From IMG/VR virus record IMGVR_UViG_3300046733_000629: 64,000 nt of DNA; one strand, 5' to 3'. Below the pieces are notes generated by a model. That model searched no databases. It was not told where the DNA came from and saw only the letters and a list, made by a program, of their open reading frames with translations. This DNA comes from a virus. Taxonomy: Duplodnaviria; Caudoviricetes. Of this stretch, positions 29,401-31,913 are shown in pieces (the stretch's first letter is position 1; each line of letters opens with the position of its first letter). Made by a program: the position numbers and the translations under genes.

Positions 29401-29617
29401 GATCAGCTGTAAGTTCGCTATCTTGATTAGAATCAAAATTAGCTATCTGAGCTTCAAGGTATGCTTTTGTAACTAGATCTTGTGGATCAACTGGATCACT
29501 AGCATTTTTAACTATCTTAGTTGAAACATCAATATTACTTAATGCATTTGAATCTAGTACTAAATCAGACGATTCTGATGTAATTTTTCCTATGCTGTGA
29601 TTAATATTAATCGCCAA
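26432..29617 (-). CDS. PKD-domain virion surface protein (TTG start)
   Basis: Repeated W(G/D)DG PKD motifs (YTISWGDG, YTWSWGDG, YEWDFGDG); late promoter TAAATA 29657-29662. Confidence 0.75.
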   Translation of the reverse strand: MAININHSIGKITSESSDLVLDSNALSNIDVSTKIVKNASDPVDPQDLVTKAYLEAQIANFDSNQDSELTADLTDVYETIENVRNNTYVKSIDFNANITTGGAGLTTTLVISTEGNPNRYTISWGDGNTTTATTDSTPTHTYATNSGSPFDVAVTAFNNNGTGAGSTISKTKEDYITIFTADPAVSFQAWDSLTGGNQITTWNDGDTVYFQNTTTNATAATVQYTWSWGDGLADDVINDDTVTGGSAGARIAHTFQPGTEIDVTRNVTLTLDVHSSATPGILPLDDTASFKIYDTHTPDTTSDITTGINEDSVNGLNVTFTNNTEATVGSYNNYGITYEWDFGDGSIQTVNSGSGNSGDQGTTINHKYTLSASDQANGVARDYTGNLKVISSHTNSPFTSSPFTIHVEPDVRANISGSANTVSDRNGDNIYDVYDSVDYNGVNRALVTVNNTTQNGDSHEYNWNDSSSNDVEAGLNSVQHDFTGVAPGNYTLDFTASGTPDITAQTDTASLTFQVNAVPAAPQGLGSKTIQLTDPWQGIDPKLANGFIDNSSTSPLTAGDDLDTYTARRYTNGTIDTTIAQNSYNGLSGEASAIINGVSSGSKSFTTSLNENGTFGSLVISGQDDANNTISSSTYPTGFYQTFDSKITNNFSGYSLGVNDQRIEHTETGNTNYVTVICDDLTNVPTIDLAGSILSENNPGTYRYISGIPYYNTGGPQLVLTGALLTDWIGQAYRDTNNVFEISNGTNSEGTSGATISTQYKDYAELESGTTPYLTNGIPNSNTGFTAPYNIADQLINITTSNIAAVETLKFKANNVNGSSNYVELTNTSVQVHTANPSGVIEDDIPVATTLGNGVITNNAIRIADFVAYGNTNTPTINSVIDYMATPFTGAIAVSGTQEATVRWGQLEHNTTNYSTGFLPVGPDRSADTGTQYFTFAFQRQVVANFDIRLTAPNGIAGMWIASPGTGIDTASGLSGWLEGTSQYAGVGVPGSNTGTGGNGADGCALTGADVIPTNSTINDNSYTMTLGSENMSNATNNVVLVRIALTSGQEITNLQIGEAS

Positions 29618-29670
29618 TTTCTATACCTCAATTCTTCTTCGCTCTTGCGTATATTGTATTTACTTTTTTT

Positions 29671-29814
29671 TTAATCTAACAATATAGAAAGTGTAGAGAA
29701 ACGATTATCAGTGTATAAAATGTTTTGATGCATAGAGTTAAAAGACGTTCTTAAAACGCCTTCTTTGTTCTCTATAGCTTTTACTCCAAAATCTGGGTTA
29801 AAATGTGATGACAT
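29671..29814 (-). CDS. Putative 47-aa small protein (MSSHFNPDFGVKAIENK...), not in ORF track
   Basis: Follows late promoter 29851-29857; AGGA 8 nt upstream of the ATG. Confidence 0.4.
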   Translation of the reverse strand: MSSHFNPDFGVKAIENKEGVLRTSFNSMHQNILYTDNRFSTLSILLD

Positions 29815-29867
29815 AACTCGACTTCCTACTACTTCCTATTATTATACATGTATTTATCAAATAGAAG

Positions 29868-29896
29868 TCAAAAGAAAAGACGCCGAAGCGTCTTTT
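29868..29896 (-). terminator. Intrinsic terminator with UUCG loop
   Basis: AAAAGACGC-TTCG-GCGTCTTTT-CTTTT. Confidence 0.9.
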
Positions 29897-29902
29897 CAAA
29901 AT

Positions 29903-30119
29903 ACAAGCAAAATAGGGAGGATTAGGGTTTACCTCCAACTCCTCGACAAGATACCATTCTATATCCAGAGAGCCTGTTTCCGTTCGGTAGAACGATGTGA
30001 CTCAGCGTATTTCTACTACCAAGCCTGGGTACCACCCCTAAACAGCCAAGTTCGACAGTCTGGTTACTGCCTCTTCCTTGCACTATAAACATTGAGCCGC
30101 TAAACTCTTTGTTGCTTAT
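29903..30119 (-). ncRNA. Unassigned ~217-nt structured RNA
   Basis: Own promoter and terminator; 5'/3' closing helix AUAAGCAA/UUGCUUGU; at least six internal hairpins. Confidence 0.75.
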
Positions 30120-30125
30120 GTACTT

Positions 30126-30154
30126 AATATATAACGTTTTGATCAAAAGGTCAA
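30126..30154 (-). promoter_or_regulatory. Sigma70-type promoter for the ncRNA
   Basis: ggTTGACC-17bp-TATATT; predicted +1 at A30119. Confidence 0.8.
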
Positions 30155-30173
30155 CCTTTTTTTTTAAAAAAGA

Positions 30174-30326
30174 TTAAATTTTTTGTAGTCTTGGATCTGA
30201 ACTTAGTATGTTTTTCTGAGCACGTGGTCTAGACAAAGGTCTTTCCATTTGTCTTCTATGCAATGCTTTATGTGCTTGCTTAGTACGCTCTTTTTTACGA
30301 GCTAGTTCGAAGTCTCTGTGATTCAT
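30174..30326 (-). CDS. 50-aa Arg/Lys-rich protein (MNHRDFELARKKERTKQAHK...), not in ORF track
   Basis: AAGGAG RBS; late promoter at 30401-30407. Confidence 0.7.
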   Translation of the reverse strand: MNHRDFELARKKERTKQAHKALHRRQMERPLSRPRAQKNILSSDPRLQKI

Positions 30327-30352
30327 AACACTCTCCTTTTTACAGTTAAGTG

Positions 30353-30394
30353 CGTTCCTTCGCTATTGCTACTTCCGTCCCATTGGGATGAACG
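30353..30394 (-). ncRNA. Compact structured leader RNA (three-way junction)
   Basis: CGUUC/GAACG closing helix, UCCC-AAU-GGGA hairpin, GGAAGUA linker; begins near the predicted late +1. Confidence 0.55.
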
Positions 30395-30413
30395 TATTAT
30401 TATTTATCTAAAT

Positions 30414-30487
30414 TGGCATGAGTGAAAGGAATCGAACCCTCATTTGCGGAGTTGGAAGCCGCCGTGTTACCATTACACTACACTCAC
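30414..30487 (-). tRNA. trnW: tRNA-Trp (CCA) with encoded 3' CCA
   Basis: Cloverleaf GTGAGTG/CACTCAT, D arm GTGT/ACAC, T loop TTCGATT, anticodon loop TT-CCA-AC, discriminator G73. Confidence 0.85.
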
Positions 30488-30524
30488 AAAAAAAGCCCCT
30501 AATAAAATTAATTACTAGGGGCTT
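30488..30524 (-). terminator. Strong terminator abutting the tRNA 5' end
   Basis: AAGCCCCTA/TAGGGGCTT stem; the T7 run is directly followed by tRNA G1. Confidence 0.8.
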
Positions 30525-30553
30525 ACTAAAATAACTTTTGTTAAAAAGTCACA

Positions 30554-30616
30554 TCAAGACATACCCCAAATTAATGGTGGCCAATTTGTAATATAAATTG
30601 TATTAGTCTGTGACAT
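30554..30616 (-). CDS. Putative 20-aa leader peptide MSQTNTIYITNWPPLIWGMS
   Basis: Downstream of a sigma70 promoter; AAGGA 13 nt upstream; two TGG codons. Confidence 0.45.
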   Translation of the reverse strand: MSQTNTIYITNWPPLIWGMS

Positions 30617-30646
30617 GTTAAAATTTCGTTCCTTTATTATGTATGT

Positions 30647-30675
30647 AATATACTACACATATTTATGAAAGTCAA
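30647..30675 (-). promoter_or_regulatory. Sigma70-type promoter for the leader/tRNA unit
   Basis: ggTTGACT-17bp-TATATT. Confidence 0.8.
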
Positions 30676-30696
30676 CCACTTAATGAAAAAAAGATC

Positions 30697-30726
30697 AAAA
30701 AAATAGGGCCCCTAAAGGCCCTATTT
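30697..30726 (-). terminator. Terminator after the major capsid gene
   Basis: AAATAGGGCC/GGCCCTATTT plus T run. Confidence 0.85.
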
Positions 30727-30749
30727 CTATATCTGTTCCTTGTTCTCTA

Positions 30750-31913
30750 TTATGAGAATGAAAGGTTACCAGCGTTAACACCAATTTTAGCTAGGTAGTC
30801 AGCTGCGTTACCAAGAGATGAAGCTTGGTTGTTTAGCTCTACATAACCGTAACGTGTCATGAATGACACTGTTGGTTCGAATGTTGCTGGATCAAGTACT
30901 GTGCCTGAAGACATTAGTGGGATGTATGGGCAATAGAATGCTGCCGCATCAATTTCACCGTCGCCTTTGTAGCCAACTAGTACTGGAGCATCGTCTGCTG
31001 CATACTGATCTACAAACACTCTCATAGTGTTATTTAAAGTTCCAACAAATTTAGTGTTAGTTGGTGCTTCAAAAGGACCTTCAGTTGTTCTTGCGAATGC
31101 TGAAGTTGTCGCTGATTGTAGTACTGTTAACATTGTTGGTGAGATAACAACGTAGTTACCTGCGCCACGTCTTGTACGTGTAGCGATTAGGTTAGCTGCT
31201 CTGTTAATTAGAACTGCTAGTGCCGCATGTTGGTCTCCAACGAAAGTTGCTTGACCTGATACGTTACCTTGATCGTATGTGTCTGTGGCTGCGCCTGCTA
31301 GTGTACGTAGTGAAGTAAGAACTTCTTGGTCAATCTCAGCAGTAATTTCTTGTGCAAGTGCTTGCATGATTTCTGCTTCAACGTCTAGACCGTGCATTGA
31401 ATTAGCATCTTGTGCTGCTTCAAAAGTCCAACGTGCTGATAATTTACGTGTTTTAGCTTCAACAGTTTGTTTCAATACTTGGATTGAAAGTTTACGACCT
31501 GCTTCTGCTTCTAGAGCTGAAGTTGAAGTCGGTCCACCTGTTGATGCGTCACCTGAGTAACCTTTTGCAATTGCAAATGGTGATAGTGCTTCGTCACCAG
31601 CTGTTACGCCAGCTGCTGTTTGGCCATATCTTACTCTTAGTGTGTGGATTTGTCCTACTGGACCTGTCATAGGTTGTACACCTACTAGTTCGTTCGCGAT
31701 AACTGTTGGCATAACACGACGAATAACTGGTAGAATCACTTTGTTAAGTGATGCAACGTTACCTGCCATTGTTGTACCTGCGGTTGCTGATTCTGAAAGA
31801 TAGTTTCTTGTGTTTTCAAGAACTGATTCCATAACAACCTTTTTGTTACCATTTAAACCATCTGTAAGGGCGTCTTTTGTTACGTCCCAATTTTCAAATA
31901 GATTCTGTGTCAT
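30750..31913 (-). CDS. gp23: Major capsid protein (gp23-like)
   Basis: ILPVIRRVMPTVIANELVGVQPMTGPVGQI, VEAKTRKLSARWTFE, AFYCPYIPL, FMTRYG. Confidence 0.97.
   Translation of the reverse strand: MTQNLFENWDVTKDALTDGLNGNKKVVMESVLENTRNYLSESATAGTTMAGNVASLNKVILPVIRRVMPTVIANELVGVQPMTGPVGQIHTLRVRYGQTAAGVTAGDEALSPFAIAKGYSGDASTGGPTSTSALEAEAGRKLSIQVLKQTVEAKTRKLSARWTFEAAQDANSMHGLDVEAEIMQALAQEITAEIDQEVLTSLRTLAGAATDTYDQGNVSGQATFVGDQHAALAVLINRAANLIATRTRRGAGNYVVISPTMLTVLQSATTSAFARTTEGPFEAPTNTKFVGTLNNTMRVFVDQYAADDAPVLVGYKGDGEIDAAAFYCPYIPLMSSGTVLDPATFEPTVSFMTRYGYVELNNQASSLGNAADYLAKIGVNAGNLSFS

What the first reader, a model, noticed from the sequence alone, without database searches (positions are those of the whole stretch)
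30174..30407. Structured late leader coupled to a 50-aa Arg/Lys-rich peptide
Just after the late promoter the RNA folds as CGUUC[A-UCCC-AAU-GGGA-C-GGAAGUA-GC-AAUA-GC-GAAG]GAACG, then comes an AAGGAG RBS and a strongly basic peptide. From memory, similar CGUUCAUCC..GGAAGUA..GAAGGAACG elements occur in marine T4-like phages, where Rfam abiF hits have been reported; I could not verify this. If it is abiF-like it might mimic an RNA antitoxin. Alternatively the basic peptide may bind this leader or the adjacent 217-nt RNA.
Basis: inference. Interest (0 to 1): 0.6.

Follow-up and report, generated by a model that had tools for sequence, protein, structure and literature searches.

The report
Phage glutamine riboswitch gating a micro-protein
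An uncultured giant marine T4-related phage starts a late message with a genuine glutamine-sensing RNA switch (not an abiF-like RNA) that most likely lets a conserved 50-residue basic protein, shared with SAR11-type ocean bacteria, be made only when the infected cell is nitrogen-rich; the switch class and its presence in such phages were known, the protein it controls is unannotated and of unknown target.

Summary
The fold CGUUC/UCCC-GGGA/GGAAGUA/GC-GC/GAAGGAACG is a type-1 glutamine riboswitch aptamer (Rfam RF01739, 53.3 bits against a cut-off of 35). abiF does not match. A T4-type late-promoter motif (TAAATA) starts 12 nt before P1, and this distance is fixed in dozens of related loci. The bases just after P1 (GCACUU) pair with GAGUGU at the 3' edge of the ribosome-binding site, and this helix covaries, as in the published gifB ON switch. 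The 50-aa ORF is a real gene: pN/pS is 0.27 and its length is conserved. All 80 viral loci found through the peptide alone carry the aptamer 26-28 nt upstream, and 59 of them lie right behind the capsid gene. The protein matches no Pfam, NCBIfam or PDB entry and is not detectably related to IF7, IF17 or DUF4278. A 48-aa homologue lies on chromosomes of small alphaproteobacterial (probably SAR11) genomes, behind a different, uncatalogued pseudoknotted leader. Other marine heterotrophs carry the same riboswitch in front of other small basic proteins. The target is unknown; control of nitrogen assimilation is an inference. This scan has already reported the same cassette on other DNA.

The parts
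30401..30408 (-). T4-type late-promoter-like motif GATAAATA (consensus TATAAATA, 7 of 8). Its TAAATA starts 12 nt upstream of P1.
   Evidence: Sequence. TAAATA lies at -12 or -13 in nearly all capsid-linked loci and within 16 nt of the aptamer in 72 of 80 peptide-found loci. The transcript start was not mapped.
30349..30396 (-). Type-1 glutamine riboswitch aptamer (glnA RNA motif, RF01739): P1 30394-30390/30357-30353, P2 30388-30385/30381-30378, P3 30369-30368/30363-30362.
   Evidence: 53.3 bits against gathering 35, E 6.8e-9, full model 1-53. P3 covaries across 72 phage copies: GC/CG/AU.
30328..30353 (-). Expression platform. GCACUU (30353-30348, starting with the last base of P1) pairs with GAGUGU (30333-30328). 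This covers the 3' end of the ribosome-binding site and the spacer before the AUG.
   Evidence: The helix is in the MFE and centroid folds. It covaries among loci: pair 58-82 is UA 48, CG 13, UG 6 and pair 57-83 is CG 48, UG 7, UA 4, AU 1. The layout matches the model for gifB in PMC6212724.
30333..30338 (-). Ribosome-binding site AAGGAG, 6 nt before the ATG.
   Evidence: Sequence. GGAG is conserved in the alignment.
30174..30326 (-). Gene for a 50-aa basic micro-protein ('family A'): N-terminal helix plus a conserved tail motif SRPRA-KNILS-DPRLQKI.
   Evidence: 31 protein clusters, all about 50 aa. Differences by codon position are 858/724/1533 and pN/pS is 0.27. AlphaFold2 gives a helix at 3-28 and an extended tail, pLDDT 86. 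Exact RNA-library contigs cover 30196-30372 and 30225-30375 in two studies.
30414..30487 (-). Context: tRNA-Trp (CCA) inserted between the capsid-gene terminator and the cassette.
   Evidence: In most relatives the cassette follows the capsid terminator directly.
30750..31913 (-). Context: major capsid protein gene (gp23 type) upstream on the same strand.
   Evidence: The capsid gene lies upstream on the same strand in 59 of 80 peptide-found loci.
29906..30104 (-). Context: manA-family RNA downstream. It is a variable neighbour, not part of the unit.
   Evidence: RF01745 scores 52.1 bits (cut-off 55.2), E 3.6e-12 locally. It follows the peptide gene in only 3 of 20 related loci.

Best explanation
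This is a self-contained late unit of an uncultured giant T4-related marine phage: late promoter, type-1 glutamine riboswitch, ribosome-binding site and a 50-aa basic micro-protein gene. The riboswitch most likely acts on translation as an ON switch. Without glutamine, the bases immediately 3' of P1 (GCACUU, beginning with the invariant C that follows P1) pair with GAGUGU and cover the 3' part of the ribosome-binding site and the spacer. With glutamine bound, P1 and its capping contact hold those bases and the site opens. This is the mechanism proposed for the Synechocystis gifB leader. The protein would therefore be made late in infection only when host glutamine is high, that is, when the cell is nitrogen-replete.

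The protein is a real, conserved, orphan protein. Its nearest relative is a chromosomal 48-aa gene in small alphaproteobacterial (probably SAR11-order) genomes, so the phage most likely carries a copy of a host regulator.

By inference only, it modulates host nitrogen assimilation, with glutamine synthetase the first candidate target. The inference rests on two points. In cyanobacteria this riboswitch controls the GS-inactivating factor IF17. In each of five marine heterotroph genomes examined, the only RF01739 locus precedes a small basic protein.

Shown: aptamer membership, the covarying platform helix, coding conservation, obligatory RNA-peptide linkage, and the host homologue. Inferred: ligand response, ON polarity, late transcription start, and target.
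For: - Aptamer: RF01739 scores 53.3 bits against a cut-off of 35.
- Structure: P3 and the anti-SD helix covary in 72 distinct phage copies. The covariation score is 0.226 against a shuffled mean of 0.122 (0 of 500 shuffles reach it), and 92.5% of cells pair against 30-55% when the partners are slid. The helix is present in the MFE fold.
- Published model: the same model, with in vivo ON behaviour, is published for gifB (PMC6212724).
- Transcriptional versus translational: only 26-28 nt separate P1 from the start codon and there is no terminator, so control by translation is the only option.
- Coding: pN/pS is 0.27. There are 31 clusters and 39 representatives in 1.84 billion proteins.
- Linkage: 80 of 80 loci found through the peptide carry the aptamer, 72 of 80 carry TAAATA, and 59 of 80 lie behind the capsid gene. 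In a sample of 20, all 20 pass the RF01739 cut-off.
- Host homologue: the profile matches at E 1e-8 in two genomes. The homologue occurs in 6 of 301 genomes of that order, on chromosomal contigs of up to 1.2 Mb, between housekeeping genes.
- Heterotroph cassettes: cassettes with the same aptamer and platform lie on large chromosomal contigs of marine heterotrophs. Hosts include Pelagibacteraceae, OM43-like Burkholderiales, SAR116/Levibacter and Porticoccaceae. Small basic proteins follow them, and in each of five genomes this is the sole RF01739 locus.
- Equivalence of outputs: in SAR11-order genomes, family-A-like and family-C-like micro-proteins share one alternative leader, which argues that they are equivalent outputs.
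- Expression: exact contigs in RNA libraries of two studies cover the ORF and the 3' half of the aptamer.
Against:
- The sequestering helix in this copy is only 6 bp with two G-U pairs and touches only the last base of GGAG. The fold z-score is -1.55.
- No transcript start was mapped. Contigs cannot show ends or strand, and RNA libraries may hold DNA.
- The protein shows no detectable relation to IF7-like or DUF4278 profiles: hhalign probability is 0.1% for each. The same holds for the co-located families C (0.4%) and B (5.8%).
- GlnE, the usual proteobacterial GS off-switch, is present in 2 of 5 cassette-bearing genomes, so there is no clean complementarity.
- PMC9004378 states that the OM43 host of phage Melnitz has no glnA. 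If so, GS cannot be the target of that phage's family-B peptide.
- The cellular family-A homologue lacks RF01739, so its link to glutamine rests on association.
Confidence: 0.6

Rival explanations
1. The micro-protein is specifically a glutamine-synthetase inactivating factor, a functional analogue of cyanobacterial IF7/IF17. It binds GS electrostatically when glutamine is high and so spares ATP and glutamate for virion synthesis. This is the sharpest form of the target inference in the best explanation.
For: It has the same riboswitch class and the same kind of output as gifB: a small, very basic protein that is part helix and part extended. All five cassette-bearing heterotroph genomes have GS, and three of the five show no GlnE. 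An IF7-like 47-aa gene in a Microcystaceae MAG sits behind the same aptamer; its likeness to IF7 is judged from memory.
Against: There is no sequence or profile relation to IF7-like or DUF4278 proteins. GlnE is present in 2 of 5 genomes. OM43 strain H5P1 is reported to lack glnA (PMC9004378). No binding data exist.
Confidence: 0.25
2. The peptide is a virion or DNA-packaging accessory: a basic counter-ion or internal head peptide. It would be made beside the capsid protein, and its nitrogen-costly synthesis would be allowed only when nitrogen is plentiful.
For: The position is conserved directly behind the major capsid gene under a late promoter. The composition is very basic.
Against: Homologues and analogous cassettes lie on bacterial chromosomes among housekeeping genes, away from any phage genes. 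The conserved non-basic tail motif suggests a specific partner. In 21 of 80 peptide-found loci no capsid gene was found upstream.
Confidence: 0.08
3. The basic peptide is an RNA-binding protein that acts on its own leader (autoregulation) or on the neighbouring structured RNA.
For: Arg/Lys-rich helices often bind RNA. The slot downstream of the gene often holds structured RNA genes: manA, freshwater-2 and tRNAs.
Against: The downstream RNA varies: manA in 3 of 20, freshwater-2 in 3 of 20, otherwise tRNAs or none. Cellular homologues have no such neighbour. The same protein families occur behind two unrelated leaders.
Confidence: 0.05
4. The element is an abiF-like RNA that mimics an RNA antitoxin of an AbiF/HEPN system.
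For: None beyond the recollection that abiF hits were reported in a marine T4-like cyanophage. That report is true of S-CREM1, but there abiF and glnA are separate loci.
Against: abiF does not appear even at E up to 10, and the same bases match RF01739 over the full model.
Confidence: 0.01

Closest known systems
Type-1 glutamine riboswitch in the gifB (IF17) leader of Synechocystis sp. PCC 6803 (Klahn et al. 2018, PMC6212724; Rfam RF01739)
   Same: Same aptamer family with a full-model match. Same kind of expression platform, in which the bases following P1 pair with the ribosome-binding region. Same kind of output, a small basic protein. Both lie at the start of their transcripts.
   Different: This one is driven by a phage late promoter rather than an NtcA-repressed host promoter. 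Its output protein is unrelated in sequence to IF17/DUF4278 and IF7. The host is probably a heterotroph, whereas that paper found the class only in cyanobacterial genomes.
Glutamine riboswitches reported in Methylophilales phage Melnitz, Pelagibacter phage Mosig and pelagimyophage MAVGs (Buchholz et al. 2022, PMC9004378)
   Same: Same aptamer and nearly the same platform. The window bases 30323-30395 are 87.8% identical to Melnitz. Both are marine T4-related phages of streamlined heterotrophs.
   Different: That paper assigns the switch to the upstream ssrA (tmRNA) gene. The GenBank record places it under the SsrA feature and leaves the 32-codon basic ORF downstream unannotated. Here the controlled gene is a 50-aa protein of another family, a tRNA-Trp gene rather than a tmRNA gene lies upstream, and a late-promoter motif directly precedes the aptamer.
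Cyanophage and picocyanobacterial glnA / Downstream-peptide RNAs in front of YRG (DUF4278) peptides (Weinberg et al. 2010, PMC2864571; PMC9964418)
   Same: A glutamine-sensing leader followed by a very short ORF carried by a T4-like phage. 26 of the 121 aptamer matches found (119 viral stretches plus Melnitz and the window) have such YRG peptides.
   Different: The cyanophage copies carry NtcA-type boxes and DUF4278 peptides. The window's copy has a late promoter and a non-YRG orphan protein.
IF7 / IF17 glutamine-synthetase inactivating factors (gifA, gifB)
   Same: Small, strongly basic and partly unstructured. Expressed only at high glutamine or nitrogen.
   Different: No Pfam DUF4278 match, no YRG motif, and hhalign probability of 0.1% to IF7-like and DUF4278 alignments. 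GS binding is untested.
abiF RNA motif (Rfam RF03085)
   Same: A short structured RNA also reported in one marine T4-like cyanophage (PMC9964418).
   Different: No covariance-model match here at any listed E-value. The sequence and fold are different.

Membership tests
Glutamine riboswitch type 1 (glnA RNA, RF01739) | Covariance-model score at or above Rfam's gathering score over the full model | tested here: met
   53.3 bits against 35, model positions 1-53 of 53, E 6.8e-9 for 64 kb.
Glutamine riboswitch type 1 (glnA RNA, RF01739) | Three-stem junction (P1, P2, P3) with conserved ACGGAAGUA and GAAGGAACG strands | tested here: met
   All elements are present with exact consensus bases. P3 covaries across phage copies: pair 35-44 is CG 40, GC 24, AU 8. 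P1 and P2 could not vary because the search pattern fixed them.
Glutamine riboswitch type 1 (glnA RNA, RF01739) | Selective binding of L-glutamine | not testable with these tools
   Needs in-line probing or ITC on the RNA 30398-30324.
Glutamine riboswitch type 1 (glnA RNA, RF01739) | Expression platform in which the bases after P1 sequester the ribosome-binding region (translational ON switch) | tested here: met
   The helix GCACUU/GAGUGU is in the MFE fold and covaries among 72 copies. ON polarity is inferred from PMC6212724.
abiF RNA (RF03085) | Covariance-model match | tested here: not met
   Absent from all 25 matches up to E = 10 in 29600-30760 and from the gathering-threshold scan of the window.
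IF17 / DUF4278 (PF14105) | Pfam DUF4278 match with the N-terminal YRG motif | tested here: not met
   No Pfam family at E up to 10. hhalign against a DUF4278 alignment gives probability 0.07%. As controls, phage YRG peptides do match PF14105.
IF7-like GS-inactivating factors | Sequence relation to the arginine-rich GS-binding region | tested here: not met
   hhalign against three IF7-like 47-aa proteins found behind a Microcystaceae riboswitch gives probability 0.11%. Their identity as IF7 rests on my memory of the IF7 sequence.
IF7 / IF17 (function) | Binds and inactivates glutamine synthetase | not testable with these tools
   Needs an enzyme assay or pull-down. No multimer modelling was available.
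T4-type late promoter | TATAAATA-like -10 element at a fixed short distance from the transcript start | tested here: met
   GATAAATA lies at 30408-30401. TAAATA lies at -12/-13 from P1 in nearly all capsid-linked loci and in 72 of 80 loci.
T4-type late promoter | Mapped transcript 5' end | tested here: inconclusive
   Only assembled RNA-library contigs were available. They end inside the aptamer at 30372 and 30375 and cannot show ends.
manA RNA (RF01745), the neighbouring 217-nt RNA | Covariance-model score at or above gathering | tested here: inconclusive
   52.1 bits against 55.2, E 3.6e-12 locally, full model. The 80%-identical copy in phage Mosig scores 64 bits.

The most novel reading that the evidence does not exclude
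The 50-aa protein and the other small basic proteins found in the same slot (families B and C) form an unrecognised set of nitrogen-status effectors of abundant marine heterotrophs such as SAR11, OM43, SAR116 and SAR92. They would work like cyanobacterial IF7/IF17. Giant and T4-like phages would copy them and re-wire them to a late promoter. In SAR11-order genomes and in some phages, the same proteins are driven by a second, uncatalogued pseudoknotted leader instead of RF01739. That leader would then be a new class of glutamine- or nitrogen-sensing riboswitch.
Probability: 0.25. Interest if true: 0.8.

Novelty: new variant of a known kind. Interest (0 to 1): 0.5.

Why it matters
Glutamine riboswitches have been treated as a cyanobacterial device that controls the GS-inactivating factor IF17. 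The one paper on phages of heterotrophs assigned the switch to an upstream tmRNA gene.

The evidence here points to a different output: an unannotated family of basic micro-proteins. The RNA and the protein are never separated (80 of 80 loci). The protein has a chromosomal homologue in probable SAR11 genomes. Several dominant marine heterotroph lineages carry the same riboswitch in front of similar micro-proteins.

If these proteins regulate nitrogen assimilation, two things follow. First, phages would be tuning nitrogen metabolism in the ocean's most abundant heterotrophs according to the host's glutamine pool. Second, these streamlined bacteria would have a nitrogen-control layer that is not in current models. 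For this window itself the result is more modest: a known riboswitch class, correctly re-identified, with a new orphan output gene.

Tried and rejected
- **abiF:** no covariance-model match.
- **Family searches for the peptide:** Pfam, NCBIfam, PDB sequence search and ESM Atlas gave nothing usable. The best PDB row (ribosomal protein L13a, E 1.3) is chance.
- **Profile comparisons:** family A against family C, family B, IF7-like and DUF4278 alignments gave no significant relation. The shared slot is therefore not evidence of homology.
- **Exhaustive profile search:** it gave 39 representatives. The four long ones (305-525 aa) match through repeats or ankyrin-like stretches and were set aside.
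- **Naming the Microcystaceae 47-aa protein as IF7:** it has only three unnamed relatives, so the likeness to IF7 rests on memory.
GlnE is absent from 3 genomes, all MAGs, and present in 2 of the 5 cassette-bearing genomes. The idea is not supported as a rule.
- **Family A in Gammaproteobacteria:** none in the 401 genomes sampled. There was no positive control, so this shows nothing.
- **RNA libraries:** only assembled contigs were available. They show presence of 30196-30375 in two studies, but no ends, strand or level. The uncovered stretch 30376-30735 proves nothing.
- **The window's own genome:** no whole genome is held for it.

Full report
**1. What is there**

All features lie on the minus strand. 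Read 5' to 3', the order is:
- the gp23-type capsid gene (31913-30750) and its terminator;
- a short leader and tRNA-Trp(CCA) (30487-30414);
- GATAAATA (30408-30401);
- the structured element (30396-30349);
- AAGGAG (30338-30333) and the ATG at 30326;
- a 50-codon ORF ending at 30174;
- a manA-family RNA (30104-29906) and a terminator.

The peptide has 15 K+R against 5 D+E and a pI of 11.7.

**2. Identity of the RNA**

A gathering-threshold scan of the window against Rfam 15 gives two matches. One is the tRNA. The other is RF01739, the glutamine riboswitch aptamer, at 30396-30349: 53.3 bits against a cut-off of 35, E 6.8e-9, full model. A permissive scan of 29600-30760 lists 25 matches up to E = 10, and abiF is not among them. 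The neighbouring '217-nt RNA' matches manA (RF01745) at 52.1 bits, just under its cut-off of 55.2, with E 3.6e-12. Its 80%-identical counterpart in Pelagibacter phage Mosig scores 64 bits.

**3. Relatives and the expression platform**

In 72 distinct copies, P3 covaries: pair 35-44 is CG 40, GC 24, AU 8. A helix between the five bases after P1 and the bases at the 3' edge of the ribosome-binding site also covaries: pair 58-82 is UA 48, CG 13, UG 6, and pair 57-83 is CG 48, UG 7, UA 4, AU 1. Overall, 92.5% of cells pair against 30-55% when the partners are slid, and 0 of 500 shuffles reach the covariation score. P1 and most of P2 were fixed by my pattern, so they say nothing.

In the window the helix is G30353-U30348 with G30333-U30328. 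It appears in the MFE and centroid folds, although the overall z-score is only -1.55. Only 26 nt separate P1 from the AUG and there is no terminator, so control must act on translation. Klahn et al. proposed the same arrangement for gifB. There, the conserved C after P1 and the following bases pair with the ribosome-binding site, and glutamine binding releases it. They showed glutamine-dependent increase of expression in vivo (PMC6212724). ON polarity here is therefore an inference by analogy.

**4. Promoter and position**

In the capsid-linked loci the order is: capsid terminator hairpin, T-run, G/A-CTAAATA, then the aptamer. TAAATA starts 12 or 13 nt before P1 in nearly every case, and the window has the same spacing. 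T4 late promoters are TATAAATA (established knowledge), so the riboswitch would sit at the very 5' end of a late transcript. No 5' end could be mapped.

Metatranscriptome libraries from two studies contain contigs identical to 30196-30372 and 30225-30375. Contigs show presence only.

**5. The ORF is a gene, and it is tied to the riboswitch**

- Thirty-one 90%-identity clusters exist, nearly all exactly 50 aa and all 'hypothetical'.
- Among 14 distinct coding sequences, differences by codon position are 858/724/1533 and pN/pS is 0.27.
- A search from the protein side alone returned 80 viral loci. All 80 have the aptamer, with P1 ending 26-28 nt before the start codon. 72 have TAAATA just upstream, and 59 lie behind the capsid gene.
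- In a sample of 20 loci, all 20 pass the RF01739 cut-off and 4 have tandem aptamers. The downstream neighbour varies: manA in 3, freshwater-2 RNA in 3, otherwise tRNAs or nothing.

The RNA and the peptide are therefore one unit, and the manA RNA is not part of it.

**6. What the protein is**

There is no Pfam, NCBIfam, PDB or Atlas relative. An exhaustive profile search of 1.84 billion representatives gives 39 hits. Apart from four long spurious ones and a few with extended or truncated ends, they are orphans of roughly 50-60 aa that share the tail motif (S/A)RP(R/K)A-KNI(L/T)S--P-(L/M)Q-I. AlphaFold2 with the family alignment predicts one helix (residues 3-28) and an extended conserved tail, with mean pLDDT 86. 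hhalign finds no relation to DUF4278 (0.07%) or to IF7-like proteins (0.11%).

The same genomic slot, behind the same riboswitch, holds other small basic proteins in other phages:
- family B, 28-34 aa, which includes an unannotated ORF in Melnitz;
- family C, 64 aa;
- family E;
- YRG/DUF4278 peptides in cyanophage-type loci.

Family A is not detectably homologous to B or C.

**7. Cellular counterparts**

A scan of one genome per prokaryote species for the aptamer's 3' half plus the phage-type platform found 27 stretches. Many lie on large chromosomal contigs:
- Pelagibacteraceae (264 kb);
- Candidatus Levibacter (complete chromosome);
- Candidatus Marisalimonas (712 kb);
- SAR116;
- OM43-like Burkholderiales;
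- Porticoccaceae.

Downstream lie family-C-like proteins of 66-70 aa (Pelagibacteraceae, Porticoccaceae), family-B-like proteins of 35-40 aa (Burkholderiales, SAR116 and relatives), and in one case a glutamate-synthase-like ORF. Many of these cassettes have tandem aptamers.

In each of five such genomes this is the only RF01739 locus. The neighbouring genes examined in two of them are ordinary housekeeping genes. This goes beyond the statement in PMC6212724 that the class is exclusive to cyanobacteria. PMC12379486 mentions RF01739 in SAR86. All five genomes have GS and PII, and GlnE is found in two of the five.

**8. A host homologue of the window's own protein**

The family-A profile matches a 48-aa ORF in two 1.2-Mb alphaproteobacterial genomes (E 1e-8). 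With that protein as query, 6 of 301 genomes of the same order have it. All genomes listed for that order are 1.0-1.5 Mb. In one genome the gene lies at 1.20 Mb on a single contig. It sits between glyoxalase, cytochrome c and transporter genes. The glyoxalase is 62% identical to that of a Pelagibacteraceae MAG, against 35% for SAR116-type genomes. The order is therefore probably Pelagibacterales, but its identity is not told. The phage gene thus has a chromosomal relative, which fits a host-derived regulator better than a virion part.

**9. Side finding**

That cellular gene has no RF01739. Instead it has a conserved leader of about 80 nt. A covariance model built from the six copies finds the motif in 15 of 151 genomes of that order. 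In 11 of these it sits in front of family-C-like micro-proteins.

The core is a hairpin whose loop pairs with the following linker (a pseudoknot), followed by a second hairpin. The pseudoknot pair 31-45 is AU 12, GC 2, UA 2. In hairpin 2, pair 49-64 is CG 10, UA 6, GC 1 and pair 50-63 is GC 10, CG 7. Overall, 93% of cells pair against 24-37% when slid. Seven viral contigs carry the motif directly after TATAAATA. At least three of these have a 38-39-aa basic ORF behind it. No Rfam family matches at E up to 0.01.

Two unrelated leaders therefore drive the same protein families, in cells and in phages alike. This argues that the proteins are equivalent outputs, and that the second leader is a candidate new nitrogen-responsive element.

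**10. The phage**

The capsid protein is 67-71% identical to those of jumbo phages (Sinorhizobium phage Phosso, Vibrio phage 2.275.O, Pseudomonas phage PA5oct). Related contigs reach 222 kb. Parts of the cassette region resemble Mosig and Melnitz. The host is unknown; the peptide's homologue hints at SAR11-type bacteria.

**11. Verdict**

The riboswitch class and its presence in phages of heterotrophs are published (PMC2864571, PMC9004378). The output gene is not: PMC9004378 assigned the switch to the upstream ssrA. The target of the protein remains unknown, and control of glutamine synthetase or nitrogen assimilation is an inference with real counter-evidence. Earlier notes of this scan describe the same cassette on other DNA. 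I reproduced their core claims independently. I found the GlnE idea only partly true. I added the SAR11-order homologue and the alternative leader.

Noticed in passing
L249-L269 (for example L249:1406-1486:+); viral L270-L276: An uncatalogued leader RNA of about 80 nt: a hairpin whose loop forms a covarying pseudoknot with the linker, then a second hairpin. It lies in front of family-A-like and family-C-like micro-protein genes in 15 of 151 genomes of a probable SAR11 order. In 7 viral contigs it lies directly after TATAAATA, and at least 3 of these have a 38-39-aa basic ORF behind it. There is no Rfam match. It is a candidate new nitrogen- or glutamine-responsive cis-regulator.
   Followed up: partly
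L122-L148 (for example L123, L131, L128, L139, L125): RF01739 glutamine riboswitches, often in tandem, occur on chromosomal contigs of marine heterotrophs (Pelagibacteraceae, OM43-like Burkholderiales, SAR116/Levibacter, Marisalimonas, Porticoccaceae). Each precedes a small basic protein, and in five genomes this is the only such locus. This contradicts the published view that the class is exclusive to cyanobacteria.
   Followed up: partly
L001:2406-2575 (Methylophilales phage Melnitz-1, MZ577095.1): The published Melnitz riboswitch lies under the annotated SsrA feature. A 32-codon basic ORF with a good ribosome-binding site follows it on the same strand and is not annotated. A 33-aa ORF on the opposite strand is annotated instead.
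   Followed up: partly
L170-L234, positions about 2660-2920 of each locus: The slot just downstream of the micro-protein gene is a hot spot for structured RNA genes: manA RNA in 3 of 20 loci, freshwater-2 RNA (RF02980) in 3 of 20, and tRNA genes in others.
   Followed up: no
L145:6833-7365 (SAR116 single-cell genome): Here the glutamine riboswitch precedes a long ORF whose N-terminus looks like the glutamate synthase large subunit. This is a direct link of the aptamer to a nitrogen-assimilation enzyme in a heterotroph.
   Followed up: no
L017, L030, L048, L094, L112: In these viral contigs the same aptamer and platform precede a 78-aa protein with a GTG start. It is not basic and belongs to a different family (it ends ...WLPPRWCH...), and it sits at a different place in the genome.
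   Followed up: no
L004, L008, L010, L016, L020 and others (cyanophage-type loci): GTA-N8-TAC (NtcA-type) boxes lie about 25-35 nt upstream of the aptamer in the loci that encode YRG/DUF4278 peptides. The capsid-linked loci have a late-promoter motif there instead.
   Followed up: no
window 29886-30141: RNA-library contigs identical to the window cover the manA-family RNA in two runs of one study (29899-30141 and 29886-30115). This is consistent with its being expressed.
   Followed up: no
L141:427-570 (Microcystaceae MAG): A 47-aa arginine-rich protein that, from memory, resembles IF7 (gifA) sits directly behind an RF01739-type aptamer. In Synechocystis the riboswitch is on gifB, not gifA.
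   Followed up: partly
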